From: an uncultured Pelagibacteraceae bacterium
GTDB taxonomy: Bacteria > Pseudomonadota > Alphaproteobacteria > Pelagibacterales > Pelagibacteraceae
NCBI GenBank assembly: GCA_902608845.1
Contig: CACLPR010000001.1
Span: forward strand, 19,375-83,374
Direction of reading: 5' to 3'
DNA length: 64,000 nucleotides
Part shown: in pieces, positions 5,760 to 26,230 of the stretch
How the letters are laid out: the number at the start of each line of letters is the position of its first letter
Position numbering within the stretch: the stretch's first letter is position 1
Notes under the pieces: generated by a model
Database searches by the model: none
What the model saw: the letters and a program-made list of their open reading frames with translations, nothing else
Told to the model about the DNA's origin: nothing
Made by a program: the position numbers and the translations under genes

Positions 5760-6935
5760 ATGTCTAAAATAAAAAGTATTCGTACCAAGGTATATCAATG
5801 GAATGGTAAAACAGTTCCTCCACAAAACAATTTTTGCACAAATGCATCAGACCTTTTGTTTGAAAAATCAGATGCTATGGGCTCTTTTAGGTTTCATGAA
5901 TGGTTAATATGTGAAATTGAAACAGACGATGGTACAGTTGGAATTGGAAACGCAGCACTCGCACCACAATTAGTGAAAAAAACAATCGATACTTATTTAA
6001 CTCCTTTAGTAATAGGTGAAGATCCTTTTGATTATTCTTATATATGGGAAAAAATGTATAGAAGAACGCATGCGTGGGGAAGAAGAGGATTGGGAATGGT
6101 AGCTATTTCTGCAATTGATATTGCACTCTGGGATATAATGGGAAAGATTACAAATAAACCTGTATTTAAATTATTAGGTGGGAGAACAAAAGAAAAAATT
6201 CCTGTTTACGCATCTAAACTTTACAGCCAACCAATCAACGACTTGCAAAAAGAAGCTGAAAGCTATGTTAAGCAAGGTTTTAAAATGTTTAAAATGAGAT
6301 TTGGATGGGGGCCAAAAGATGGACCTGATGGTATGAAAAAAAATATTGAGCTAGCTGAAGCAGTTAGAGAAGTTATTGGATATGATACCGACCTAATGAT
6401 GGAATGTTATATGGGTTGGAACTTAGATTATACAAAAAGGATGATCCCTAAATTAGTAAAATTTAACCCTAGATGGTTGGAGGAACCTGTAATAGCAGAT
6501 GATATTCATGGCTATGCAGAATTAAATAATATGAATGCAATTCCAATTTCTGGTGGAGAACATGAATTCAACTTATTTGGATTTAAACACTTATTGGATA
6601 TTAAAGCAGTCAGCTATATTCAATATGACAATAATAGAGTTGGTGGATTTACAATTGCAAATAAAATAAATGCATTGGCAGAAGCTTATCAAGTGCCAGT
6701 TATTCCTCATGCTGGTCAAATGCATAATTATCATTTAACAATGTCAAATTTTAATTGTCCAATATCTGAATTTTTTCCAGTCCATGACGTAGAAATTGGC
6801 AATGAATTATTTTATTACATTTTTGAAGGTGATCCTGCCCCTAAAAATGGATATATAAATTTAGATGATAACAAACCCGGTCTAGGTTTAACAATTACTG
6901 ATAAATTTAAGTCTGATTTCAAAATAATAGAATAA
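5760..6935 (+). CDS. lyxD: Mandelate racemase/enolase-superfamily sugar-acid dehydratase, L-lyxonate dehydratase-like
   Basis: [43 protein letters not shown] and [10 protein letters not shown] closely match the recalled Labrenzia L-lyxonate dehydratase. Confidence 0.78.
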
Positions 6936-13412: not shown

Positions 13413-15257
13413 TTAAACACCTTGTCTCTGTTTTGATTTTCCTTCTTTATGGAGTTTTAGTGCTTCTTCATTTTCTTTTGATGTTGGTATTTCAAGCGTA
13501 GGACTTTCCCAATAAGCAGATCCCTCAAGCCATTCATAACTATGTGTTTTGATTGAAATGACATAAGTGATTTCTGACTGCTTAGCTCTTTTAAATGCCT
13601 CTTCTAATTCTGAAATACTAGAAACATGTTCTGATTTTGCACCCATACTTGCAGCATGTTGAGCAAAATTAACTTCTTTTAAATCTTGAACATTTGATGA
13701 ATTAAATAAACAATTAAATTCTTTTCCACCCTTGAACAATTGAAGTCTATTTATAACAGCATGACCTCCATTATCACACACGATAATTATTAATTTGTTA
13801 TTCGTTAATACTGAAGAATATATGTCAGAATTGTTTAATAAATATGAACCATCTCCTACAAATGCAATGACATCTTTATCTGGGTTTGCCATTTTAATTC
13901 CAAGAGCACCGGAAATTTCATAACTCATGCAACTAAATCCCCACTCTGTCTCATGTGTATTTAACTCTTTTGGCCGCCAAACTTGAACAACTTCTCCGAC
14001 CAAACCTCCTGCTGCTGTAACAGCTATATCAGTTGGATCTGAATTCCTATAAATTGCTCCAACAGCGTGAGCATAACTTGGTAAATCTTGATTAGTTGGA
14101 CCACTCTCTTTATCTACATATTCATTCCAAGACCTAAGCTCATCTTGTGATTTTTTATGCCAATTATCAGATGATCTCCAATCTCCAAGTACATTTGATA
14201 ATTCTATTAATGATACTTTTGCATCTCCAATAACTGCGTCTGCTAAATGTTTATTTGCATCATGTCTAGCAATATTAATTGAAACTAACTTAAATTGAGG
14301 ATTTTCAAAATTCGCCCATGATCCAGTTGTAAAGTCAGCTAACTTTGTACCAATACAAATAGCTAAATCAGTTTCTTTAGCTAAATTATTTGCAGCCTTT
14401 CCTCCAAGTCCTCCTATTGGTCCTACAAAATGAGAATGATCTCTTTTCATTGTTGAGTATCCCATAACTGTTTGAGTTACTGGTATATTATGTTTAACTG
14501 CAAAATTGCTTAACTCTTCCATGGCGTCAGAATAAAATACCCCTCCACCTGAAATTATAATTGGGTTTTTGGAATTCTTAATTCTTTCAACAGCTTGTTT
14601 AATTTGAAAATCATCTGGCTTGGGTCTTCTAATATTGTGAACTCTTTCTTTAAAGAATTCTTCGGGATATTCAAATGTTTCTCCTTGTACATCTTGGCAT
14701 AAAGATAAACACGCAGGACCACAATCTGCTGGATCTAACATGGTTTGAATTGCTTGAGGAAGTGACTGTAATATTTGCTCTGGTCTTGTAATTCTATCAA
14801 AATATTTTGTAACTGGTTTAAATGAGTCGTTAGCTGTCATTCCTGGATTTGAAAAGTGTTCAACCTGTTGCAAAACTGGATCTGGCATTCTATTTGCATA
14901 AGTATCTCCAGGTAAAAATAAAATTGGCAATCTATTACTCATCGCTACTGCTGATGCTGTAACTAGATTTGTAGATCCTGGTCCAACCGAACTTGTTGCA
15001 ATAAAAATTTGCTTTCTTCTTTTTGCTCTTGAAAAAGCAATGCCTGTTAAAGCCATATTTTGTTCATGATGACCTCTAAATGTTGGAAGTTTATCTTTAT
15101 TTTCCTCTAAAGCTTGCCCAATACATGCTACATTTCCATGTCCAAAAATACCAAAAGCTCCTGGGAATAAAGGTTCAACCTTACCATCTATATAGATTTT
15201 CTGTGCAATTAAGTGTTTAACTAAGGCATGTGCGCAAGTAAGCTTTATTTTTTTCAT
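13413..15257 (-). CDS. iolD: 3D-(3,5/4)-trihydroxycyclohexane-1,2-dione acylhydrolase
   Basis: IFGHGNV, SSVGPGSTN, PDPVLQQVE, GFSCMSYEI and ThDP motif GDGS...DN. Confidence 0.93.
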   Translation of the reverse strand: MKKIKLTCAHALVKHLIAQKIYIDGKVEPLFPGAFGIFGHGNVACIGQALEENKDKLPTFRGHHEQNMALTGIAFSRAKRRKQIFIATSSVGPGSTNLVTASAVAMSNRLPILFLPGDTYANRMPDPVLQQVEHFSNPGMTANDSFKPVTKYFDRITRPEQILQSLPQAIQTMLDPADCGPACLSLCQDVQGETFEYPEEFFKERVHNIRRPKPDDFQIKQAVERIKNSKNPIIISGGGVFYSDAMEELSNFAVKHNIPVTQTVMGYSTMKRDHSHFVGPIGGLGGKAANNLAKETDLAICIGTKLADFTTGSWANFENPQFKLVSINIARHDANKHLADAVIGDAKVSLIELSNVLGDWRSSDNWHKKSQDELRSWNEYVDKESGPTNQDLPSYAHAVGAIYRNSDPTDIAVTAAGGLVGEVVQVWRPKELNTHETEWGFSCMSYEISGALGIKMANPDKDVIAFVGDGSYLLNNSDIYSSVLTNNKLIIIVCDNGGHAVINRLQLFKGGKEFNCLFNSSNVQDLKEVNFAQHAASMGAKSEHVSSISELEEAFKRAKQSEITYVISIKTHSYEWLEGSAYWESPTLEIPTSKENEEALKLHKEGKSKQRQGV

Positions 15258-15312
15258 TTTTCTAGTTATATTCTCATCAAATATTCAACTAATTAACCAC
15301 AAAATAAAAATT

Positions 15313-16755
15313 ATGTATAGCAAATTTGGACAATTCATTGACGGCAAATGGCAAGCATCACAAAATAATGAAACTTATGATGTTTTAAATCCTGCAACTG
15401 AAGAAGTTTTAGGTAAAGCATCTAAAGCAGGTGAAGAAGATGTAAACAAAGCACTTAAGTCTGCAGAAAAAGGTCTTGAAGTTTGGAGAAATACTCCACC
15501 TTGGCAAAGATCAAAAATTATAAGAAAAATTGCCGATCTTATGAGAGAGAGAACTGACGTTTTGGCTAAGTGGTTAACATTAGAAGTTGGAAAGCCACTA
15601 TCAGAAGCAAAAGGGGAAGTTGGCGGAGCTGCAGATATTTTTGAGTGGAACTCTGAAGAAACAAAAAGAATTTATGGTCAGATAGTTGAAAGTAGATTTG
15701 AACATACAAGAATGTATGTAAAATATGAACCTGTTGGAGTTGTTGCTGGATTAATACCATGGAACTTTCCAATAGTTTTATCCTCAAGAAAAATTTCTAC
15801 TGCTTTAGCTGCAGGATGTTCAGTAATTTGTAAGCCTGATGTAATTACTCCAGGTAGTGTAATGGAACTTATGAATATTATAAATGATGCGGGGGTTCCT
15901 CCAGGAGTAGTAAATTTATTATCTGGTGATCCAGCTAAAATCTCATCTCAATTAATATCATCTGATATAGTGAAAAAAGTTTCTATTACTGGTTCAACAA
16001 GAGTTGGAAAACTAATTTTAAAACAAGCTGCTGAAAAAGTCCAAAGAGTTACAATGGAATTAAGTGGCCATTCACCTTTCATTGTTTTTGACGACGTAGA
16101 TATTAACAAGGTAACCGACATGGCAATTACTGCTAAATTTAGAAATAATGGTCAAGTTTGTATATCACCAGCAAGATTTTATATTCATGAAAGTAAAAAA
16201 GATGAATTTGCTAAAAAATTAGTTGAAAAGGTTAGTAAACTGAAAGTTGGTAACGGAATGGATGAAGATACAATTCTAGGACCTTTAACTACAGAAAAAA
16301 GATTAAATGAAATAGAGGCATTAGTAGAAAAAACTAAAAGTGAGGGAGCAACGGTTTTATGTGGGGGAAAGAGACCAGCTGGTTTTAATAAAGGATATTT
16401 CTATGAACCAACTGTTTTTGACAATGTTAAAGATAATTTTACAATTGCTAAAGAAGAGCCCTTTGGACCTTTAGTTCCATTGCTTACTTTTAAAAACACA
16501 GATGAAGTTGTGGAAAGAGCAAATGACAATGACCTTGGTTTAGCAAGCTATATTTACACAAATTCTTTAGAAAAAGCACACAAAGTCTCAGAAAAAATGG
16601 AAACTGGAACATGCGCAGTGAACCATCCAACAATTGCATTTGCTGAAGTACCTTTTGGAGGAATAAAACAAACAGGTTATGGAAGAGAAGGTGGTTCAAT
16701 GGCTATCAAAGATTATTTGAACGTAAAGTACACTCACTTCGGTCTCAATTATTAA
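15313..16755 (+). CDS. NAD(P)-dependent aldehyde dehydrogenase (SSADH / alpha-ketoglutaric semialdehyde dehydrogenase-like)
   Basis: PWNFP, TGSTRVG, MELSGH, KFRNNGQVCISP and EPFGP; the GDPAKIS and VCISP features recall the AraE-type KGSA dehydrogenase. Confidence 0.85.
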   Translation: MYSKFGQFIDGKWQASQNNETYDVLNPATEEVLGKASKAGEEDVNKALKSAEKGLEVWRNTPPWQRSKIIRKIADLMRERTDVLAKWLTLEVGKPLSEAKGEVGGAADIFEWNSEETKRIYGQIVESRFEHTRMYVKYEPVGVVAGLIPWNFPIVLSSRKISTALAAGCSVICKPDVITPGSVMELMNIINDAGVPPGVVNLLSGDPAKISSQLISSDIVKKVSITGSTRVGKLILKQAAEKVQRVTMELSGHSPFIVFDDVDINKVTDMAITAKFRNNGQVCISPARFYIHESKKDEFAKKLVEKVSKLKVGNGMDEDTILGPLTTEKRLNEIEALVEKTKSEGATVLCGGKRPAGFNKGYFYEPTVFDNVKDNFTIAKEEPFGPLVPLLTFKNTDEVVERANDNDLGLASYIYTNSLEKAHKVSEKMETGTCAVNHPTIAFAEVPFGGIKQTGYGREGGSMAIKDYLNVKYTHFGLNY

Positions 16756-17546
16756 TGAGAAAAAATAAAGTCAAACAAATGATGGCTGATGGTAAGCCTG
16801 TTGTAAATGGTTGGTTACAAATACCAAGCACTGTATCAGCAGAAGTTATGGCGCATCAAGGTTGGGACTCTCTAACTGTAGATATGCAACATGGACTTGT
16901 TGATTACACAAATGCACTTCCAATGCTTCAAACAATTTCATCAACTGATGTAACTCCTCTTGCTAGAGTAAATTGGAATGAACCAGGCCAAATAATGAAA
17001 ATTTTAGACGCTGGTTGTTATGGAATTATATGTCCAATGGTAAGTAACAAAGAAGAGGCGGAAAGATTTGTTCAAGCTTGTATGTATCCTCCAAGAGGAT
17101 ATAGAAGTTTTGGTCCTGTTAGAGGATTGATTTATGGTGGAGCTGATTATGCCGACCATGCAAATGATGAAATTTTAAAATTAGCTATGATTGAAACAAA
17201 AGAGTCATTAGATAAATTAGATGAGATTATGTCAACAGATGGCGTAGATGGAATATATATTGGTCCAGCTGACTTAAGTTTAGCAATAGGAGAAAAGCCT
17301 GGGTTTGACAGAGCAGAAAATACAAAAGCTTATTCAGAAATATTAAGAATATTAGAGCATGCCAAAAAAAATAATATATTTGCAGGAATTCATAATGGAA
17401 CACCAGAGTACGCACAAAAAATGATCGATAAAGGTTTTAACTTTGTAACTATTGGTGCAGATCAAAGAGCAATGAGCGCAGGTGCTAAAGCAATTGTTGA
17501 AAAAATGAAAGGCTCAATAAGCAAAAAAGAATCTGAAACTTATTAA
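16755..17546 (+). CDS. HpcH/HpaI class II pyruvate aldolase
   Basis: DMQHG, ARV, LDAG..GIICPMV, YPPRGYRSFGP, MIET and IGPADL; TAATG coupling to the ALDH gene. Confidence 0.9.
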   Translation: MRKNKVKQMMADGKPVVNGWLQIPSTVSAEVMAHQGWDSLTVDMQHGLVDYTNALPMLQTISSTDVTPLARVNWNEPGQIMKILDAGCYGIICPMVSNKEEAERFVQACMYPPRGYRSFGPVRGLIYGGADYADHANDEILKLAMIETKESLDKLDEIMSTDGVDGIYIGPADLSLAIGEKPGFDRAENTKAYSEILRILEHAKKNNIFAGIHNGTPEYAQKMIDKGFNFVTIGADQRAMSAGAKAIVEKMKGSISKKESETY

Positions 17547-18358
17547 TCAAGCTTATCAAGAAAAGACTCGAACTCTTTTTTATTTAAATTTGAAGATTGT
17601 TTTTTTCCTGGAAATTTTCCCGCCATTGAATCTTTTTTGAATGCCTTAAGAGCTCGAACTCTCTCAACTTTTATTTCATTTTTTAATTTTAATAAATTTC
17701 CATAAGCTTTTGAATGTCTTGGAGGATTTAAAGTATCTCCACATATGTCTTCCATGAACAGATACATTACGTCAGCTTTCTTTCCTGAACCTAAAGAGAC
17801 TGTAACTATATTCGTTCTTTTTGAGATTTCTCCCATTACATTTTCTGGGATAACCTCACATTCGGCAGAAAAAGCTCCTGCATCTTCTAATCTTTTAAAT
17901 TTTAAAAAAAGTTCATGTGCCTCTTCACTATTTTTTCCTACTGCTCTTAAACCACCAATCCACGTAGATTTTCTTGGAACTAAACCAAGATGTCCCATAA
18001 CTGGAACATCCTCATTAGCCAGCATTTCTATGATCTTCATACTTCTAGGTGTCATTACAGCATCAGCTCCATTTTCTAGGGCTTCAAACGCTCCTCTCAT
18101 GATATCTTCCGAAGTGACAAACTTATTTAATACTAACGCAGCAGTTAAAAATAGATTTTTTGATCCCTCTCTCACATGTTTCACATTAAAAGCATTGCAG
18201 ATTATCATGTCAAACCCAGCCTTCTCTGCAGCCTCAGCTTCATCTATTGTATTAGCTGTGACTTGAGTAAATTTTTTTTTTCCTTTTGCTTTTTTAAGAT
18301 CATCAACTGTAAGAGTTCTGTTAGCAGGTTGAGCGGCCCAAGTATAAATCTTTTTCAT
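17543..18358 (-). CDS. Divergent PanB-like (ketopantoate hydroxymethyltransferase fold) protein
   Basis: PVMGHLGLVP, GGLRAVGK, LEDAGAF..E.E and G.FP retained; GDS and ADMPF metal-ligand motifs missing. Confidence 0.75.
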   Translation of the reverse strand: MKKIYTWAAQPANRTLTVDDLKKAKGKKKFTQVTANTIDEAEAAEKAGFDMIICNAFNVKHVREGSKNLFLTAALVLNKFVTSEDIMRGAFEALENGADAVMTPRSMKIIEMLANEDVPVMGHLGLVPRKSTWIGGLRAVGKNSEEAHELFLKFKRLEDAGAFSAECEVIPENVMGEISKRTNIVTVSLGSGKKADVMYLFMEDICGDTLNPPRHSKAYGNLLKLKNEIKVERVRALKAFKKDSMAGKFPGKKQSSNLNKKEFESFLDKLD

Positions 18359-19323
18359 TTTATATTTTTTAATTCTTTATAGATATTATTCACTCTATGT
18401 ACTTCTTGTGCAATATTAAAGTACCCTTCATATTCAATTTCATCTGGTGAAACGTCAAAATGATAATGTCCAGCATCATTCTTATGCTCATATGAGTGAA
18501 AGTGAGTATGCTCACCGGACTCTCTTAAATTTAATTCTCCTCCCGTTGGATCACCAGTCCATAAAACAGTATAGCATTGTAATTTTGGTCCAACAGGCTC
18601 ATAAAATTGTAGAAAATCTTTTGTGCATTTCATCAATTGTGGATCATAATATTCATGTTTTATATCCTTATAATCTGGTTGTACATGTGATCTTATTTTT
18701 CCATTCAAAACTCTAAATACACCAGCAAGAGCAATATGATCTTTATTCCCAATTTTAAGATTTTCTGAAAGTACTGCTCTTATTGATTGAGGTAATGAAC
18801 CTTGTTTTCCAATTCTTTTTTTTATCTTTAAATATATAACTTTTCCTTTAACACCATCTGAATAATAAACATTACCCAGCCCGCCATGTTTGCTTGCAGT
18901 ATAGTCCTCTACTATACATTCTTTATCTTTTCCTACCCTAGCAATTAAAGATTTATTTTCTTTAGTAATAAAGTTTTCATTTATAACCAATTCTCCACAG
19001 TGTCCATCCAGGCAAGACATTGCACCAGATCCTGCGCCAAGTGCGTACGATCTTTCTGATCCAATCATTTTAGAGATTTCAAAATAATCAAATTCTGTTC
19101 CAAGATATTTAGGATCATGCATGTAAGGCTCCCCTCCAACATCGATTATCTTTTGGTTACCACTCATGCCTTCAGACGGACAATCCCAGTTTCTTAAATT
19201 TGGACAATCAATTACTTCTGCTTTTACACTGTCATAATTCTTTGACAGACCTTTTTCTAATGCGTTTGATATTTCTTCTAACTTAAATTTTTTGAAAATT
19301 CCTTTTTCTATTTTTAATTCCAT
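18355..19323 (-). CDS. DUF1907/PTD012 (C11orf54) family zinc enzyme
   Basis: LEE...L.KGL..NY, DCPNL, DVGG.PY, LGAG.G, SHVQP and EHTHF...GHYHFD..PD..EYEGYF align with recalled human C11orf54. Confidence 0.85.
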   Translation of the reverse strand: MELKIEKGIFKKFKLEEISNALEKGLSKNYDSVKAEVIDCPNLRNWDCPSEGMSGNQKIIDVGGEPYMHDPKYLGTEFDYFEISKMIGSERSYALGAGSGAMSCLDGHCGELVINENFITKENKSLIARVGKDKECIVEDYTASKHGGLGNVYYSDGVKGKVIYLKIKKRIGKQGSLPQSIRAVLSENLKIGNKDHIALAGVFRVLNGKIRSHVQPDYKDIKHEYYDPQLMKCTKDFLQFYEPVGPKLQCYTVLWTGDPTGGELNLRESGEHTHFHSYEHKNDAGHYHFDVSPDEIEYEGYFNIAQEVHRVNNIYKELKNIK

Positions 19324-19386
19324 ATATAAATTAGTTACATAATATATTGCATAATTTTTTTACATAAATATATTTCGACTTTAAAA

Positions 19387-20331
19387 ATGAATAATAAAGA
19401 TTTAAAAGTTGCAGTTCTTGGTGCAGGGGCAATGGGTTGTCTATTTGGAGGCCTACTAGCAGAAAAAGGTCTAAATGTAACGCTCATTGACGTTTGGAAA
19501 GAGCATGTTGATGAAATAAATAAAAATGGTCTAAAGATGGATGGTCATGGTGGTGATAGATTTATAAAAGTACCAGCTACATCAGATCCATCTACAATTG
19601 GAAAAGTTGATGCTGTGATAGTGATGTGTAAAGCAACAGCTCTAGAGCCTGCTTTAAAAAGTATTAAAAATATTATTAACGATAAAACAGTTTTTATGTC
19701 TTTTCAAAATGGAATTGGACATGAAGCTATAATTAAAAGTATTGTTGGTGATGAAAAAGTAATCGGGGGAACAACAACTCAAGCATCAAATATCTTAGGT
19801 CCTGGTCATATTATGAATCATGCATCTCTACCCTCTTGGATTGGAGAATATGATGGTGGAATAACTAATAGAATAACCGAAATTGCAGACACCTTTACTG
19901 CTCATAATTTGGAAATGATTGCTGCTGAGGATGTAAAAAAAAGAAAATGGATGAAACTTTTTGCTTTAACCGCAATAGGCCCACTTTCAGCTATTTTTGA
20001 TCTACATCATACTGATCTTTACATAAATAATAATGCCAACGACGTTTCTAGAAGTTTAGGTAAAGAGATAATTTTAGAGACAAGAGACGTTGCTTTAGCA
20101 GATGGCGTTAATGTTTCTGAAGATGAGTGTTTATTTATGTTTAATAAAATTGTTGATTCAAAACAAACAAATAAGTCTTCAATGGCTTTTGATGTGCTTT
20201 ATAAAAGAAAAACTGAAATTGATTTCATAAGTGGCGCCGTGTCTAAAATAGGAAAAAAACATGGAATAGCCACACCATTAAATGACCTTATGTACAAAAT
20301 GATTAAAGTAAAAGAGGGCATGTACAGCTAA
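19387..20331 (+). CDS. Ketopantoate reductase (PanE/ApbA) family 2-ketoacid reductase
   Basis: GAGAMG, FQNGIG, KWMKL, SSMAFD and TEIDFISG. Confidence 0.85.
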   Translation: MNNKDLKVAVLGAGAMGCLFGGLLAEKGLNVTLIDVWKEHVDEINKNGLKMDGHGGDRFIKVPATSDPSTIGKVDAVIVMCKATALEPALKSIKNIINDKTVFMSFQNGIGHEAIIKSIVGDEKVIGGTTTQASNILGPGHIMNHASLPSWIGEYDGGITNRITEIADTFTAHNLEMIAAEDVKKRKWMKLFALTAIGPLSAIFDLHHTDLYINNNANDVSRSLGKEIILETRDVALADGVNVSEDECLFMFNKIVDSKQTNKSSMAFDVLYKRKTEIDFISGAVSKIGKKHGIATPLNDLMYKMIKVKEGMYS

Positions 20332-21192
20332 ATGCTGAAAATTAGTAAACTAAAGAAAATTAAATCAAACTTCCCGGTCATTGTTGGAGAACAAATAATC
20401 AGTAAAAAAGTGTGTAATTCTTTAATTGAAGAAATAACTAATTCAAAAAGTTTTGATGATATGATTATGGGTGGCAGAAGCAGGATTAATAAAGGATCAA
20501 AAAATTTCAACAAATATATCTCAAGTTCTAAAATCTCAAAAAAACTTTTTGCTACTTTCAATACAAAATCCTTTTATAAAAAAATTGATAAAAAATTTAA
20601 AACAGAATTTAAGGCAAATACTTGGGAAAGTTTGTTTAAACCAAAAAAATTTAATAAAAAAAAATATACACTAAAAAGAAAAGTAAATTCCAAAGAGCTA
20701 AAAAAACTACTAGGTAAAGATTATAAAAACCCAAATTTAAATTTAGATATTGATTTCTCAGTATCTAAAGGAGGATATAGATTGAGACCACATAGAGATG
20801 ATGTGAATAGGCTATATAATTTTTTGATCTATTTAACCGATATACCAAAAAAAAATGGAGGATCACTTACTTTATATAAGAAAAAAATAAACAAAAACCT
20901 TAGAAAAAGCTTTAGAAGGTTTCCTAAGATTAATGAACTTGATAAATTAAAGGAATTCACACCAAAACAGGGAAGTGTAATTTTCTTTAAATCTACTCCA
21001 AATTCTTATCACGGAGTAAATAGATTTAAGGAAAAAAACTGTCCAAAAAGATTTTTTATTTATGGAAGTTATGCTCTTAACAAGCCAGTGATATGGAAAT
21101 ATAAAAATTTTGAATATCATCCACATATTGTTGCGACGAAAAAAAGAATGCTTACATCTTTTCATGATTCGAATTATTTGCTAAAATATTAA
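20332..21192 (+). CDS. Fe(II)/2-oxoglutarate-dependent oxygenase
   Basis: H-x-D (PHRD), NFLIYL, GGSL, distal His (SYHGV) and downstream Arg. Confidence 0.72.
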   Translation: MLKISKLKKIKSNFPVIVGEQIISKKVCNSLIEEITNSKSFDDMIMGGRSRINKGSKNFNKYISSSKISKKLFATFNTKSFYKKIDKKFKTEFKANTWESLFKPKKFNKKKYTLKRKVNSKELKKLLGKDYKNPNLNLDIDFSVSKGGYRLRPHRDDVNRLYNFLIYLTDIPKKNGGSLTLYKKKINKNLRKSFRRFPKINELDKLKEFTPKQGSVIFFKSTPNSYHGVNRFKEKNCPKRFFIYGSYALNKPVIWKYKNFEYHPHIVATKKRMLTSFHDSNYLLKY

Positions 21193-21197
21193 TAACT

Positions 21198-22187
21198 ATG
21201 CAAATTAAGACTAAATTAAAGAGTATTTTAGATAGAGATGGCTTCCTAAGAGTAAGAAATGTTCTTAACTTCAATAAAGATTTAAAACCAATTTTAAATG
21301 ACATGGAATATGTAATGGACAATTTAGTTCATAAATTTGCTCCTGAGCATATGAAAGAAAAAATTTTTAAATATAACTTTAGAAAGAAATACACATACAT
21401 TTCAAAACTAAAAATTTATGATCTTGATCAATATTTTAATACTAGACTTCCAAGAGATCACGTGAAGAAAGATAGTGATTATTTTGCATCTCAATCTTTA
21501 TGGAATTTAATTAATCACAAAAAAATCTTGGATGTGGTTGAAAAATTATTAGGGCCAGAAATTCTTTCAAATCCAGTTCAAAATACAAGAATTAAACAAC
21601 CCGAAAATAAATTACCTAAACATTCTGTTCATGATGGCCTCTCAGGTAGAACTCCATGGCATCAGGATGCAGCAGTATTATCATCTTTGGGGCAAAGATT
21701 AACTGATATGGTAACTGTTTGGATTCCATTTACTAAAACTACTAAAAAAAATGGATGCATGATTACAGTAAAAGAAATTAATAAATTGGGACTATTGAAT
21801 CATATATCAGGATATAGAGGTCAGGTAGAAATAAAAGATAGTAAACTACTTAATAATTACAAGCCAGTTTTTCTGGAGGCTAATGTTGGCGATATTATTA
21901 TTTTGCACAAACACTCCATTCATTGTTCATTGCCTAATAGATCCAATGATTTTAGAATTAGCGCTGATTTAAGATACAATAGAGCTGGAACCCCATCTGG
22001 TAGGAAACCTTTGCCCAATTTTTATGTAAGAAGTAAAAATAAAAAAAATATTACTATCCACAACTATAAGCAATGGATTGCTTTGTGGGAAAAGGCAAAA
22101 AATAAATGTATTCCAAGAAAGTATGCTTTTAAATATCCACTTCCAACATTTAGAAATAGTAAAAGAGATCTTGCTAGACTAATATAA
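21198..22187 (+). CDS. Phytanoyl-CoA dioxygenase (PhyH) family Fe/2OG enzyme
   Basis: DGFL, TPWHQD, TVWIP, NGCM, GDIII and HCS..N.S...R.S.DLRY. Confidence 0.85.
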   Translation: MQIKTKLKSILDRDGFLRVRNVLNFNKDLKPILNDMEYVMDNLVHKFAPEHMKEKIFKYNFRKKYTYISKLKIYDLDQYFNTRLPRDHVKKDSDYFASQSLWNLINHKKILDVVEKLLGPEILSNPVQNTRIKQPENKLPKHSVHDGLSGRTPWHQDAAVLSSLGQRLTDMVTVWIPFTKTTKKNGCMITVKEINKLGLLNHISGYRGQVEIKDSKLLNNYKPVFLEANVGDIIILHKHSIHCSLPNRSNDFRISADLRYNRAGTPSGRKPLPNFYVRSKNKKNITIHNYKQWIALWEKAKNKCIPRKYAFKYPLPTFRNSKRDLARLI

Positions 22188-22201: not shown

Positions 22202-23158
22202 ATGAAAAAAATTCTTATTGTCCAACCTATTCATGAAAAAGGTATGGAATTATTAAAAAGTAATAGCGACTATAGTTACGAGGTTGTTGAAGATTTAAGT
22301 GTTGAAAATGTGAAACAAAAAATTGTAGATGCAGATGCAGTTTCTTTAAGAACTTCGATATTACCTGCTGAGGCAATTGAAAATGCAAAAAACCTTAAAA
22401 TAATTTCAAGACATGGAGTTGGTTACGATAATATTGATTTAAATAGCTGTAAAAAAGGAAACATCGACGTAGCAATAACCGCAACAGCAAATGCTGTGGC
22501 AGTTGCAGAACATGTTCTTTTCATGCTTTTAAGTATCTCAAAAAGAAAGAGTATGTATGACAATTCAGTCAAAAGTGGAAAATTTAATGAACGAAATAAA
22601 TTACCAAAAACTATAGAGATTTGGGATAAAAACATTCTTGTTGCTGGATTTGGAAGAATAGGAAAAGCGTTGATTAAAAGATGTTTAGGATTTGAAATGA
22701 ACGTTTTTGTTTACGATCCATTTGTAGATTCAGAAACAATAAGCAAAATGGGTGGTAAAAAAGTTGAAGATTTATCAGAGGCTATTAAAGATATGGATGC
22801 TGTCTCACTCCATATGCCTTTAACTGATCAAACTAAAAATATTATAAATTACGAACTTCTAAAAACGATGAAAAAAAACAGCATCATCATAAATGCTGCA
22901 AGAGGCGGTATTATAAATGAAAAAGATTTAGACAGGGCATTGAATGAAAATTTGATTTTTGGAGCAGGAATTGATGTATTTGAGGTAGAGCCTCCAGAGG
23001 CTGATAATCCTTTATTAAAAAATGACAAAGTTTTACTTAGTCCTCATGCTGCAGCATTCACTGAGGAATGCATGACAAGAATGGCAAAAGAAACTATTCA
23101 AAATATTTTCGATTTTTTCGATGGTAAACTTGAAGACAGTAAAAAAGTAAAATTATAA
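22202..23158 (+). CDS. D-2-hydroxyacid dehydrogenase (PGDH-like, no ACT domain)
   Basis: SRHGVGYDNID, GFGRIG, NAARG, DVFEVEP and SPHAA. Confidence 0.88.
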   Translation: MKKILIVQPIHEKGMELLKSNSDYSYEVVEDLSVENVKQKIVDADAVSLRTSILPAEAIENAKNLKIISRHGVGYDNIDLNSCKKGNIDVAITATANAVAVAEHVLFMLLSISKRKSMYDNSVKSGKFNERNKLPKTIEIWDKNILVAGFGRIGKALIKRCLGFEMNVFVYDPFVDSETISKMGGKKVEDLSEAIKDMDAVSLHMPLTDQTKNIINYELLKTMKKNSIIINAARGGIINEKDLDRALNENLIFGAGIDVFEVEPPEADNPLLKNDKVLLSPHAAAFTEECMTRMAKETIQNIFDFFDGKLEDSKKVKL

Positions 23159-24055
23159 ATTATTAATCTCTAAATTTGATTTCTTTAAAGTATCAGTAAT
23201 ATATTTATAACCCTTGATAGCATATTCAAGTGGATTAGCTTTTTTAGGATCTTGTTCGGCCTCTACCACAAGCCAACCTTGATAATTATTTTTTTTTAGA
23301 ATATCAAACAGAGGTTTGTAGTCGATACACCCATCGCCAGGTACCGTAAAAGCACCTTCTAAAAAAGCGTCCCTAAAACTCAAATCTTCATAAAGGGCTT
23401 TTTTTAATACTTCTTCTCTAATATCTTTGCAGTGTATGTGTATTACTCTTTCTTTAAATTTATTAATTATATTAATTGAGTTTCCCTTAGCAAATAACAT
23501 ATGACCAGTATCTAAAGTTAATTTTACACTATCATCTGTGTTTTCTAGTAATCTAATAGTTTCTTCTTCTGTTTCTATTACTGTACCCATATGATGGTGA
23601 TAAGCTAAAGGCATACCTTCATCTTCAAGATACTTTGCAAGCTCAGAAATTTTTGTACAATAATCTTTCCATTCTTGGTCCGTCATCTTTGGTCTATTGG
23701 AAAGTTTTTTTGTTGGATCACCCTGTATTGAACCAAAAACTTCAGCAAAAACAATACATGGAGCTTCACAATCTTTAAATAATTTAAGTTGGTCTTGAAT
23801 TAAATTTTTTTCTTGTTCAACAGAATTTTTTCTTAGATTTCCGCTATACCAACCTGAACATAATTTTAAGTTATACTTTTCTAATTTTGGTAATAATTCC
23901 TCAGATGTTTTTGGGAATTTACCACCTGACTCAATCCCAACAAATCCAGCCTGACTTGCCTCTGACAAACATTGTTCTAGAGGAGTATCTCCGCCTAGCT
24001 CAGGCATGTCATCATTACTCCAAGCAATTGGTGCTATACCTAATTTTACTGACAT
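23153..24055 (-). CDS. iolE: myo-Inosose-2 dehydratase
   Basis: GIAPIAWSNDDMPELGG, YHHHMGT, LDTGH, HCKD, FTVPGDG and VVEAEQDP; start set at the ATG at 24055. Confidence 0.93.
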   Translation of the reverse strand: MSVKLGIAPIAWSNDDMPELGGDTPLEQCLSEASQAGFVGIESGGKFPKTSEELLPKLEKYNLKLCSGWYSGNLRKNSVEQEKNLIQDQLKLFKDCEAPCIVFAEVFGSIQGDPTKKLSNRPKMTDQEWKDYCTKISELAKYLEDEGMPLAYHHHMGTVIETEEETIRLLENTDDSVKLTLDTGHMLFAKGNSINIINKFKERVIHIHCKDIREEVLKKALYEDLSFRDAFLEGAFTVPGDGCIDYKPLFDILKKNNYQGWLVVEAEQDPKKANPLEYAIKGYKYITDTLKKSNLEINNL

Positions 24056-24086
24056 AAATTTTTTATTTGTTAAGATATATTTAATC

Positions 24087-25232
24087 ATGAGATTAATTAA
24101 AGGAAAAAAAATTCAGCTTGGCGTAGTTGGAGGTGGTCCAAAATCTTGGATTGGTCATGTTCATAGAATTTCATCAAGATTTGATAATCAATATGAGATA
24201 GTTGCTGGTGTTTTTTCGAAAAATTCAAAACTATCTAAAAGCTTTGGTCAAAGTCTAGGTATTTTAAAAGAGAGATGCTATTCAAATTTTAGAGAAATGG
24301 CTGAAAGAGAAGCGGCAAGAAAAGATGGTATTAATGTTGTAGCAATAATGACACCTCCTTCAAGTCACCAAATTATTGCAGAAAAATTTATTGATAAAAA
24401 TATACATGTAATTTCTGATAAACCATTTGCTGGAAATCTTACTCAAGCTAAAAAATTATTTAAAAAAATAAAATCAAATAAAAAAATTAAGTATGCTTTG
24501 ACACACAATTACTCTGCTTATCCTATGGTTAGAGAGGCGAAAGTATTGGTTGAAAAAGGTAAAATTGGAAAAGTTGAATACGTAAACGTTGAATACGTTC
24601 AGGATTGGTCAGATGGAGAGAGTATTTCACAAAAAAATGCAAAGAAAAAGTTTAAGTGGAAAATAGATAAAAATATTGTTGGAGCTTCAGCGGTCTTAAA
24701 CGAAATTGGCTCCCATGCATATCATATGGCAACCTATATATCAGGTTTAAAAGGTGAAACTATTTTTGCAGATATTAAACAAGTTTCAAATAAAGTTAAA
24801 ATGGACAACAATGCTCAAGTAATGATCAATTTTAATAATGGAGCTAAAGGAATGTTTTGGACAAGTGTGATGGCTAGAGGTGGAGTTTATGGATTACGAA
24901 TAAGAATTTTTGGAACAAAAGGAAGTTTGGAATGGGTTCAAAACGATCCAAACTATTTAAAACTTAATCCATCTAACGGTGCAGTAAAATTTATTGAAAG
25001 AGGTTTTTTTAATGCTGAATTGTCTAAAAAATTTTCTAGATTAAAATTTGGTCATCCTGAAGGTTATTTGGATGCATTTGCAAATATTTATCGTGAATTT
25101 GCAAATTCTTTAAAAAATAATGCAAAAAAAAGGTATTTTTACCCCAATGAAGACGAAGGACTGGAAACTGCAAAATTTATTGAAGCATGCAAAGTTTCAA
25201 ACAGAAAAAAAAGATGGGTAAAAATAAAATAA
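24087..25232 (+). CDS. Gfo/Idh/MocA oxidoreductase (inositol-associated type)
   Basis: GVVGGG..SWIG.VH, SDKP, THNYSAYPMVR and GHPEGYL.AFANIY; start set at the ATG at 24087. Confidence 0.85.
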   Translation: MRLIKGKKIQLGVVGGGPKSWIGHVHRISSRFDNQYEIVAGVFSKNSKLSKSFGQSLGILKERCYSNFREMAEREAARKDGINVVAIMTPPSSHQIIAEKFIDKNIHVISDKPFAGNLTQAKKLFKKIKSNKKIKYALTHNYSAYPMVREAKVLVEKGKIGKVEYVNVEYVQDWSDGESISQKNAKKKFKWKIDKNIVGASAVLNEIGSHAYHMATYISGLKGETIFADIKQVSNKVKMDNNAQVMINFNNGAKGMFWTSVMARGGVYGLRIRIFGTKGSLEWVQNDPNYLKLNPSNGAVKFIERGFFNAELSKKFSRLKFGHPEGYLDAFANIYREFANSLKNNAKKRYFYPNEDEGLETAKFIEACKVSNRKKRWVKIK

Positions 25233-26230
25233 AAACTGCTCTGTTTGGCCTTGGTAGAATTGGCCAGATGCATGCTGATAATTTAAGAAAAAATAGTGAA
25301 TTTGATTTAAAATATGTTTTTGATTTAAATAAAAATTTATTAAACAAAATTTCAAAAAGGTTTAATGCTATTTCAATAAATAATCCAGATATAGCTTTTA
25401 AAGATAATGAAATTAGATGTATTTTTATAGCCTCTTCTACTTCTACACATTTAAAATTTATTGAAAAAGGTGTAAAATATAAAAAAGTAATATTTTGTGA
25501 AAAACCACTAGATTTAAATTTAAAAAAAATTAATTCATCTTTAACAAAAATTAAAAAACTTAATCCTAAAGTTCAAATAGGATTTAATAGAAGATATGAT
25601 CCTGGACATAATTTACTTAAAAAGAATTTATTGAAAAATAAAATAGGTAAACTAGAGAAAATTATTATTACTAGTCGCGACCCTGCTCCTCCTTCGTTAT
25701 CTTATTTAAAAAGTTCTGGAGGAATTTTTAAAGATATGATGATACATGATTTTGATTTGGCAAGATACTACTTGGGTTCAGATGAATTTATATCAGTATT
25801 TGCTACTGGCAGTAACATATCAGACCAAAGATTTAATAAAATAAAAGACTATGAACTTGCTACTACAGTGCTTAAGTCAAAAAAAGGAGTACAATGCATT
25901 ATAACTAATTCGAGACATTGTAGTTTTGGTTATGACCAAAGAGTTGAGCTTTTTGGAACAAAAGGAATGATGATATCAGATAATAAAAGAGATACAGAAA
26001 CTAATCTCTTTTTAAAAAATTCGACAAATAATAAATCCCCTCTCCTTCATTTTTTTATAGAAAGATATGCAGAAGCTTTTAGGTTGCAACTATCTGACCT
26101 TGCAAACTTTTGCAAAAAAAATATCAAACCCAGAGCGGTTTTTGAAGATGGAAGAAAGTCTATAATTTTAGCAGAAGCTGCACAAAAATCAGTTAAATCA
26201 AAAAAATTTGAAAAATTAAAAATAAATTAA
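25214..26230 (+). CDS. iolG: myo-Inositol 2-dehydrogenase
   Basis: GLGRIG, CEKP, GFNRRYDP, SRDP, DMMIHDFD, GYDQRVE and FFIERY. Confidence 0.88.
   Translation: MGKNKIKTALFGLGRIGQMHADNLRKNSEFDLKYVFDLNKNLLNKISKRFNAISINNPDIAFKDNEIRCIFIASSTSTHLKFIEKGVKYKKVIFCEKPLDLNLKKINSSLTKIKKLNPKVQIGFNRRYDPGHNLLKKNLLKNKIGKLEKIIITSRDPAPPSLSYLKSSGGIFKDMMIHDFDLARYYLGSDEFISVFATGSNISDQRFNKIKDYELATTVLKSKKGVQCIITNSRHCSFGYDQRVELFGTKGMMISDNKRDTETNLFLKNSTNNKSPLLHFFIERYAEAFRLQLSDLANFCKKNIKPRAVFEDGRKSIILAEAAQKSVKSKKFEKLKIN

What the first reader, a model, noticed from the sequence alone, without database searches (positions are those of the whole stretch)
18355..19323. Bacterial homolog of animal C11orf54 (DUF1907) in a sugar-acid cluster
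Seen: full-length motif similarity, including the HTH...HYH zinc triad. Known: DUF1907 is mainly eukaryotic, has an acetolactate-decarboxylase-like Zn site, and human C11orf54 has been reported (from recall) as the beta-keto-L-gulonate decarboxylase making L-xylulose. Inference: this could be a non-phosphorylative bacterial route from keto-L-gulonates to L-xylulose, fed by a neighbouring 2-ketoacid reductase (stereochemistry unresolved). The gene context supports a sugar-acid role and raises the question of transfer between eukaryotes and bacteria.
Basis: partly seen in the sequence, partly recalled or inferred. Interest (0 to 1): 0.8.

Follow-up and report, generated by a model that had tools for sequence, protein, structure and literature searches.

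The report
SAR11 decarboxylase paired with hydroxyacid dehydrogenase
An abundant ocean bacterium carries a true relative of the human enzyme that makes L-xylulose, but it belongs to a separate branch that usually sits next to, or is fused with, a hydroxy-acid dehydrogenase, which points to an undescribed two-step route for breaking down an organic acid whose identity is still unknown.

Summary
Observation confirmed. ORF 18355-19323(-) is a full-length DUF1907 protein (Pfam E 5e-57; model TM 0.83 to human PTD012) in a SAR11 genome. It keeps the three zinc histidines and both residues essential in human BKGD. Bacterial DUF1907 is already mentioned in the literature.

It is not an animal-type enzyme. 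It belongs to a separate subfamily with a two-residue insertion after the catalytic Arg (R-x-S-G-E-H-T-H, 151 of 153 members). Its usual partner is a PanE/ApbA-type D-2-hydroxyacid dehydrogenase, not CRYL1: adjacent in 80/80 close SAR11 loci, co-present in 47/48 genomes, adjacent in 7/8 other bacterial contexts. The two are fused in an intron-bearing eukaryotic gene, a bacterial genome and a virus-like contig.

Decarboxylase chemistry is likely (~0.8); the substrate is not shown. L-xylulose output is weakly supported: no L-gulonate dehydrogenase found, and no FGGY kinase in two near-complete genomes. I favour oxidative decarboxylation of a (2R)-malate/tartrate-type acid to a 2-oxo acid (~0.4). 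Bacterial sequences are not one clade, so some cross-domain transfer is likely; direction unknown. An earlier scan report on another genome had already noted the partner and the cassette.

The parts
18355..19323 (-). DUF1907 / C11orf54-family zinc enzyme, RxSGE subfamily, 322 aa; predicted beta-keto-acid decarboxylase
19387..20331 (+). PanE/ApbA-family D-2-hydroxyacid oxidoreductase, 314 aa; the steady partner; probably NAD(H)-using (Asp35); keeps N108, K190, S265, E277 but not the Asn pair equivalent to E. coli N180/N184
   Evidence: E. coli residue roles from own knowledge
19324..19386 (.). 63-bp AT-rich spacer between the two divergent genes, with a conserved ATTATGCAA core; probably a shared promoter/operator (inference)
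17543..18358 (-). PanB-like protein, 271 aa, start overlaps the DUF1907 stop; lacks equivalents of E. coli D84 and E114 and does not align over the D45 loop, keeps the E181 equivalent; paralog of true panB; optional cassette member (41 of 48 genomes)
   Evidence: metal-ligand roles from own knowledge
20332..21192 (+). 2OG-Fe(II) oxygenase, cassette member in SAR11 (25% GC)
21198..22187 (+). PhyH-family Fe(II)/2OG dioxygenase, cassette member in SAR11 (46 of 48 genomes)
13413..17546 (.). Left flank of the host inositol island: IolD (13413-15257 -), aldehyde dehydrogenase (15313-16755 +), HpcH-type aldolase (16755-17546 +); present with or without the cassette
22202..26230 (.). Right flank: SerA-like D-2-hydroxyacid dehydrogenase (22202-23158 +), IolE (23153-24088 -), a Gfo/Idh/MocA oxidoreductase and an IolG-like dehydrogenase; present with or without the cassette

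Best explanation
The protein is a Zn-dependent beta-keto-acid decarboxylase that works in tandem with the PanE/ApbA-type dehydrogenase. Together they act as a two-protein version of a beta-decarboxylating dehydrogenase. Step 1 (inferred): an imported organic acid with a (2R)-hydroxy-acid end and a second carboxyl on C3 (malate or tartrate skeleton, probably C3-substituted) is oxidised at C2 by the NAD-dependent PanE-like enzyme. Step 2 (inferred): the product is a beta-keto acid with respect to the second carboxyl; DUF1907 chelates it on zinc and releases CO2, giving a 2-oxo acid. With a tartrate skeleton the intermediate is an alpha-hydroxy-beta-keto acid, the same motif as acetolactate and 3-keto-L-gulonate. 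Step 3 (inferred, weaker): accessory enzymes (PanB-like, FAH/MhpD-like, Fe/2OG oxygenases) prepare the substrate or process the 2-oxo acid. Shown: fold, conserved catalytic residues, subfamily, partnership, fusions. Not shown: any activity or substrate. Layered odds: decarboxylase chemistry ~0.8; same pathway as the PanE-like enzyme ~0.9; this substrate class ~0.4.
For: All five catalytic residues conserved; H217 and R263 are essential in the human enzyme. PanE-like gene adjacent in 80/80 SAR11 loci; present in 47 of the 48 carriers among 151 genomes and in no non-carrier; next to DUF1907 in 7 of 8 other bacterial contexts, once with a transposase between; adjacent in 40 of 41 high-GC metagenome loci with enough flank. 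About 17 DUF1907-ApbA fusion clusters, including an intron-bearing gene, a bacterial assembly and a virus-like contig. The partner's nearest structures are ketopantoate reductase and D-mandelate dehydrogenase, i.e. 2-oxo-acid / D-2-hydroxyacid chemistry. The other recurring neighbours belong to families that bind 2-oxo acids (established knowledge): PanB-like in three lineages at 62-71% identity and FAH/MhpD-like in 19 low-GC loci and one other bacterium. The linked transporters are TRAP and LivK-type ABC systems, each conserved across lineages at 48-58% identity, which fits a charged organic acid.
Against: No substrate is demonstrated and no gene context names one. The recurring link to inositol genes (46 of 48 SAR11 carriers have iolD; IolG and an RpiR-type regulator beside the operon in a second clade) is not explained by a C4-diacid substrate. 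One Caldilineaceae-type clade has no PanE-like neighbour, and a second low-GC, SAR11-like clade has the FAH-like gene adjacent instead (the PanE-like gene is three genes away in L166). The partner has lost two pocket asparagines in SAR11, so its regiochemistry could have shifted. I know of no characterised DUF1907 or ALDC acting on a 2-oxo diacid.
Confidence: 0.4

Rival explanations
1. One-carbon trimming of a branched sugar acid or cyclitol. The substrate has a tertiary carbinol carrying a hydroxymethyl or carboxyl branch (apionate, hamamelonate, or a C-methyl-inositol first oxidised by the Fe/2OG oxygenases). The dehydrogenase makes the adjacent ketone, DUF1907 removes the carboxyl (possibly after an alpha-ketol shift) and the PanB-like protein removes a hydroxymethyl. 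The product enters the inositol or tetrose route.
For: Explains the PanB-like gene in three lineages, the two oxygenases in the SAR11 cassette, PhyH-like domains fused to DUF1907 in other proteins, the inositol linkage and the Rieske/desaturase genes near L089. A tertiary alpha-hydroxy-beta-keto acid is the acetolactate motif.
Against: Needs beta-oxidation or a rearrangement by enzymes whose relatives do alpha-oxidation. The PanB-like protein lacks its metal ligands and is absent from 7 of 48 carriers. The fused PhyH-like domains show no BLAST similarity to the SAR11 PhyH gene and also occur on canonical-motif proteins. No paper on such a route was found.
Confidence: 0.2
2. One reading: the PanE-like enzyme reduces 2,3-diketo-L-gulonate (an ascorbate breakdown product) at C2, and DUF1907 decarboxylates the 3-keto-hexonate to L-xylulose without phosphorylation, a parallel to E. 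coli YiaK + LyxK + SgbH with the YiaMNO TRAP system.
For: Same catalytic residues as human BKGD. The TRAP + reductase + decarboxylase layout mirrors the yia operon (own knowledge). The island holds an enolase-family gene scoring 675-691 bits to 3STP/3SSZ, which I recall as L-lyxonate dehydratase (could not be checked). One carrier has a xylulokinase-like gene in the island.
Against: No FGGY kinase at all in G583 (99% complete) or G004 (96%); the copy I classified elsewhere is glycerol kinase. The enolase gene occurs in only 16 of 48 carriers and in 23 non-carriers. PanE-family enzymes give (R)-2-hydroxy acids, whereas C2 of 3-keto-L-gulonate is (S) by my CIP assignment, so the intermediate would be the C2 epimer. 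The active-site loop differs from BKGD in 151 of 153 members and none ends in the animal-type RD. The Ldh_2 gene in L092 is much closer to malate/ureidoglycolate dehydrogenases than to YiaK.
Confidence: 0.17
3. Non-phosphorylative tetronate/aldonate route: the dehydrogenase oxidises a (2R)-aldonate (L-threonate, D-erythronate) to the 2-oxo acid, this isomerises to the 3-oxo acid, and DUF1907 decarboxylates it to dihydroxyacetone or another ketose, replacing OtnK + OtnC.
For: L-threonate and D-erythronate are (2R) and pantoate-like (own knowledge). L089 carries an L-threonate-dehydrogenase-like gene (below cut-off) and a xylose-isomerase-like TIM-barrel gene just downstream. A PdxA2-like gene lies in the SAR11 island.
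Against: An isomerase is not part of the conserved cassette or of the fusions. The L089 genes were seen in one context only.
Confidence: 0.1
4. The protein fills the missing IolB/IolC step of SAR11 inositol breakdown (acting on an oxidised 5-deoxyglucuronate), or it is a zinc hydrolase or isomerase and not a decarboxylase.
For: Carriers lack IolB and nearly all have iolD. Human PTD012 has weak esterase activity.
Against: 33 sampled genomes have iolD without the gene, and in those examined the aldolase is followed directly by the SerA-like gene and IolE. L081 has iolB and iolC as well as the DUF1907-ApbA pair. Both decarboxylase-essential residues are invariant.
Confidence: 0.08

Closest known systems
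[quoted passage not shown]
   Same: Pfam family, fold (TM 0.83, 32% identity), zinc triad, H217 and R263 equivalents.
   Different: Two-residue insertion after the Arg; no C-terminal Asp; many subfamily-specific positions (E65, H69, W255, Y225, D227); partner is PanE/ApbA, not CRYL1 (3HCDH); separate branch with 100/98 support.
[quoted passage not shown]
   Same: Fold and three-His zinc site; beta-keto-acid decarboxylation chemistry.
   Different: 10-16% identity, TM 0.39-0.45; the His/Arg pair replaces ALDC's Arg/Glu; no PF03306 match.
Rotifer CRYL1-DUF1907 fusion (3HCDH + DUF1907)
   Same: [quoted passage not shown]
   Different: Here the fused domain is ApbA, C-terminal, and the DUF1907 domain is of the other subfamily; P0151, the 3HCDH fusion, groups with canonical sequences.
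Beta-decarboxylating dehydrogenases (isocitrate, isopropylmalate, tartrate, D-malate dehydrogenases)
   Same: The net reaction I propose: (2R)-hydroxy acid with a beta-carboxyl to a 2-oxo acid plus CO2 (own knowledge).
   Different: Those are single enzymes of an unrelated fold; here two unrelated proteins would share the job. Functional analogy only, untested.
E. coli yiaK-S operon (2,3-diketo-L-gulonate route)
   Same: TRAP transporter, reductase and decarboxylase in one operon (own knowledge).
   Different: No YiaK, LyxK, SgbH, SgbU or SgbE homolog seen in the cassette; no kinase.

Membership tests
DUF1907 / PF08925 (C11orf54 family) | Full-length profile match above the curated cut-off | tested here: met
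   194 bits against a cut-off of 25, positions 1-285 of 285
DUF1907 / PF08925 (C11orf54 family) | PTD012 fold | tested here: met
   model pLDDT 97; Foldseek 1xcr E 3e-30, TM 0.83
BKGD (EC 4.1.1.34) orthologs | Zinc ligands H266, H268, H278 | tested here: met
   H272, H274, H286; 100% conserved in the subfamily
BKGD (EC 4.1.1.34) orthologs | Essential H217 and R263 | tested here: met
   H213 and R267 invariant by multiple alignment; the spatial position of R267 could not be inspected in the model
BKGD (EC 4.1.1.34) orthologs | Arg three residues before the first zinc His | tested here: not met
   five residues before, in 151 of 153 subfamily members; 54 of 70 canonical sequences have the human spacing
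BKGD (EC 4.1.1.34) orthologs | C-terminal Asp (D315), conserved in metazoan orthologs | tested here: not met
   protein ends in K; 0 of 153 end in RD; many non-animal canonical sequences also lack it
BKGD (EC 4.1.1.34) orthologs | Co-occurrence with CRYL1 (L-gulonate 3-dehydrogenase) | tested here: not met
   five near-complete carriers: three have only a ~745-aa 3HCDH protein; two have one more of ~315 aa, and the one read looks like carnitine dehydrogenase by context
BKGD (EC 4.1.1.34) orthologs | Grouping with animal-type sequences in a tree | tested here: not met
   canonical-motif group is one side of a branch with 100/98 support; SAR11 groups with other bacteria 96/94; most tips have no taxon label
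BKGD (EC 4.1.1.34) orthologs | Decarboxylation of 3-keto-L-gulonate to L-xylulose | not testable with these tools
   needs an enzyme assay
Alpha-acetolactate decarboxylase (PF03306) | Profile match and the Arg/Glu active-site pair | tested here: not met
   no PF03306 hit; His/Arg instead
PanE ketopantoate reductase (partner, 19387-20331) | ApbA + ApbA_C domains and fold; catalytic Lys, Asn, Ser, Glu | tested here: met
   (TIGR00745 above cut-off)
PanE ketopantoate reductase (partner, 19387-20331) | Pantoate-pocket asparagines and a housekeeping distribution | tested here: not met
   N180/N184 equivalents are Leu/Gly; below every PRK06522 equivalog cut-off; confined to cassette carriers; a second ApbA gene lies on contig C18
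PanB ketopantoate hydroxymethyltransferase (17543-18358) | Mg ligands D45, D84, E114 and the panB cut-off | tested here: not met
   ligands missing, 98 bits against 207; a true panB exists elsewhere in complete carriers

The most novel reading that the evidence does not exclude
The DUF1907(RxSGE) + PanE-like pair is the core of an undescribed marine catabolic pathway: a two-enzyme oxidative decarboxylation of an abundant, still unidentified algal organic acid. It is shared by about a third of sampled Pelagibacter-genus genomes, sponge-associated and other marine bacteria, protists and possibly giant viruses, and the fused form has crossed between domains. Naming the substrate would identify a new currency of marine carbon flux and give both families a new activity.
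Probability: 0.45. Interest if true: 0.72.

Novelty: new variant of a known kind. Interest (0 to 1): 0.52.

Why it matters
SAR11 has a very small genome and keeps few optional catabolic genes. A cassette kept in 48 of 151 sampled genomes suggests a substrate that is common in seawater. The fusions reduce the problem to a two-enzyme assay plus a ligand screen of the conserved binding proteins, so the question is directly testable. It also shows that the family just assigned in humans has a second branch with a different partner, so BKGD annotation should not be copied to bacterial or protist members. That bacteria have DUF1907 at all is not new (PMC12435205; NCBI names).

Tried and rejected
Recent transfer from animals to SAR11: rejected; about 30% identity to canonical sequences, and SAR11 groups with other bacteria. 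Pantothenate synthesis by the PanB-like and PanE-like pair: rejected; metal ligands lost, true panB elsewhere. Coupling to the L-lyxonate-dehydratase-like gene: not co-distributed. Binding-protein searches gave no ligand: best DctP hit only E 1e-34, LivK-type E 1e-16. IMG/VR scans found no fusion, so the viral nature of L093 is unverified; its neighbours gave only NDP-sugar families. Complex prediction of the two proteins returned no verdict and is not used either way. Literature searches for L-lyxonate dehydratase, SAR11 iolD, mytilitol catabolism and a PanE/PanB catabolic pair found nothing relevant. The LyxD and PTD012 structure papers are not held. Genomes behind L087, L092 and L193 are not held, so I could not check for a distant PanE-like gene in the Caldilineaceae-type clade or name the organism with the bacterial fusion. 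The tree could not be rooted: ALDC is too distant.

Full report
Observation. The stretch 18355-19323 is one 322-codon frame on the minus strand. It matches DUF1907 over the whole profile (E 5.1e-57), and human PTD012 is its only PDB sequence relative (E 3.6e-35). A 79-sequence AlphaFold model (pLDDT 97.2) superposes on 1XCR with TM 0.83, followed by acetolactate decarboxylases at TM 0.39-0.45. The closest relatives are Pelagibacteraceae genomes at 80-99% identity, so the window is SAR11. [quoted passage not shown]

Active site. The window protein has H272, H274, H286, H213 and R267 at these positions, all invariant in its group. Two things differ from the human enzyme. The Arg is followed by a two-residue insertion (R-x-S-G-E-H-T-H against human R-L-E-H-T-H), present in 151 of 153 group members, while 54 of 70 canonical sequences have the human spacing. 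The C-terminal Asp is missing. Further positions are fixed only in this group (E65, H69, Y225, D227, W255). I infer that the zinc/enediolate chemistry is kept and that the substrate pocket has changed.

Subfamily and spread. In a 214-sequence tree the insertion group is one side of a branch with SH-aLRT 99. A 63-sequence tree separates the canonical group with 100/98 and joins SAR11 to other stand-alone bacterial genes with 96/94. Named bacterial members are Caldilineaceae, Spirochaetaceae and Arenicella MAGs. The gene is rare overall: none in 400 other genomes of the phylum, none in 24 genomes of a sister family, but 48 of 151 genomes of the own genus.

The partner. A PanE/ApbA-family gene lies divergently 63 bp away. 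It is adjacent in all 80 closest loci. In the genus sample it occurs in 47 genomes, all among the 48 carriers. It lies next to DUF1907 in seven of eight unrelated bacterial contexts, in three different arrangements, and in 40 of 41 high-GC metagenome loci with enough flank. About 17 protein clusters are DUF1907-ApbA fusions, two of them with a second ApbA domain. One fusion gene has an 80-bp GT-AG intron whose removal restores the frame, so it is eukaryotic. One lies in a gene-dense bacterial assembly beside a PanB-like gene and an ABC transporter. One lies on a 25%-GC, gene-dense 71-kb contig among NDP-sugar genes that looks like a giant virus (unverified). The partner's nearest structures are archaeal ketopantoate reductase and D-mandelate dehydrogenase; PanE-annotated NADH-dependent D-2-hydroxyacid dehydrogenases are known. 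It keeps the catalytic Lys/Asn/Ser/Glu set and has an Asp at the cofactor loop, as D-mandelate dehydrogenase does, which suggests NAD(H) (inference). Exceptions exist: a Caldilineaceae-type clade has no such neighbour, and a second low-GC, SAR11-like clade (71-73% identical) has an FAH/MhpD-like gene adjacent in 19 loci.

Wider context. In SAR11 the pair is the core of an optional cassette (PanB-like, DUF1907, PanE-like, two Fe/2OG oxygenases) inserted between the HpcH aldolase and a SerA-like gene of an inositol island. Genomes without the cassette have those two genes side by side. In the sample, iolD is in 79 genomes, including 46 of the 48 carriers; the PhyH gene is in 46 and the PanB-like gene in 41 of the carriers. 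Kin are not independent, so these counts show co-inheritance of a block, not 48 events. The same degenerate PanB-like family recurs beside the pair in two other lineages (62-71% identity), as do one TRAP and one LivK-type binding-protein family. A clade of ~54% GC carries IolG, an RpiR-type regulator, a TonB receptor, TRAP, ApbA and DUF1907 together. An earlier scan report (e1-5451756) had described the partner and the separable cassette; I tested both and they hold.

Is the product L-xylulose? The evidence leans against it. No CRYL1-like gene was found in five near-complete carriers. Two of them have no FGGY kinase at all; the copy I classified elsewhere is glycerol kinase, and only one genome has a xylulokinase-like gene in the island. 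The L-lyxonate-dehydratase-like gene of the window is in only 16 of 48 carriers. PanE-type reduction of 2,3-diketo-L-gulonate should give the C2 epimer of the human substrate (my stereochemical assignment). The route stays possible (0.17).

Most likely mechanism. The two families' known chemistries join most simply on a (2R)-hydroxy acid that has a second carboxyl on C3. Oxidation at C2 makes a beta-keto acid, and zinc-assisted loss of CO2 gives a 2-oxo acid. On a tartrate skeleton the intermediate has the alpha-hydroxy-beta-keto motif shared by acetolactate and 3-keto-L-gulonate. The recurring accessory proteins come from families that handle 2-oxo acids, which fits a 2-oxo-acid product better than a neutral ketose. 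Every step is inferred; none is shown (0.4). The reading does not explain the inositol linkage. A rival in which a branched sugar acid or C-substituted cyclitol loses one carbon explains that linkage but needs unusual regiochemistry (0.2).

Transfer. The SAR11 gene is not a recent gift from animals. But bacterial sequences do not form one group: the fused bacterial protein sits inside the fusion clade with the intron-bearing gene, and holding all bacterial rows together is rejected (p-AU 6.5e-57). That group was named after seeing the tree, and most tips are unlabelled. At least one cross-domain transfer of the fusion is likely; without a root its direction is open.

Verdict. A real feature and a new variant of a known enzyme family: probably the same chemistry, a different partner and probably a different substrate, in a pathway I found no paper on. 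Interest 0.52. The family, its human function and its presence in bacteria are known and the substrate is unresolved, but the fusions make a sharp experiment possible in a major marine lineage.

Noticed in passing
window 13413-17546 and 22202-26230: The SAR11 inositol island has IolD, IolE and IolG-like genes, but no IolB was found in six carriers and no IolB or IolC in this genome. An aldehyde dehydrogenase, an HpcH aldolase and a SerA-like dehydrogenase sit between IolD and IolE in all six genomes mapped that reach that far. They could form a non-phosphorylative route: 5-deoxyglucuronate to the diacid, C2 oxidation, cleavage to hydroxypyruvate plus malonate semialdehyde (inference).
   Followed up: partly
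window 5760-6935 (+): Enolase-superfamily gene scoring 675-691 bits to PDB 3STP/3SSZ/3SQS, recalled as L-lyxonate dehydratase; in 39 of 151 genus genomes, not tied to the cassette.
   Followed up: partly
window 17543-18358 (-): PanB paralog without the Mg ligands, conserved at 62-71% across three lineages; its reaction is unknown.
   Followed up: partly
L064 9007-9423 (+) and other ~80%-identity loci: A 138-aa gene with a weak SarA/Rot (MarR-like) match sits right after DUF1907 in 21 of 80 loci and is absent from the window; possibly the cassette's regulator.
   Followed up: partly
L093 1-16347: DUF1907-ApbA fusion on a 25%-GC gene-dense contig among GDP-mannose dehydratase, epimerase, sulfotransferase, DegT, 2OG oxygenase and TupA-like genes; looks like a giant-virus glycosylation cluster, not verified.
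   Followed up: partly
proteins P0130, P0286, P0246, P0196: A conserved PhyH-like domain is fused N-terminal to DUF1907 in both subfamilies (Pfam match weak, E 1e-3 to 1e-2; 35-66% identity among them); P0286 is from EukProt.
   Followed up: partly
proteins P0471, P0472: Triple fusions DUF1907-ApbA-ApbA of about 1000 aa.
   Followed up: no
L081 10600-10945: The called DUF1907 gene is frameshifted before the zinc motif; the motif continues in another frame, probably a long-read assembly error.
   Followed up: yes
L089 1962-4610: Ferredoxin reductase, Rieske ferredoxin and desaturase-like oxygenase genes upstream of the TRAP-ApbA-DUF1907 operon resemble the MocDEF methyl-inosamine demethylase set (recall).
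   Followed up: no
L202 9326-10774 (+): One carrier (G568) has a xylulokinase-like FGGY gene inside the island, not seen in the other carriers checked.
   Followed up: partly
window 20332-21192 (+): The 2OG oxygenase gene is 25% GC against 29-35% for its neighbours.
   Followed up: no
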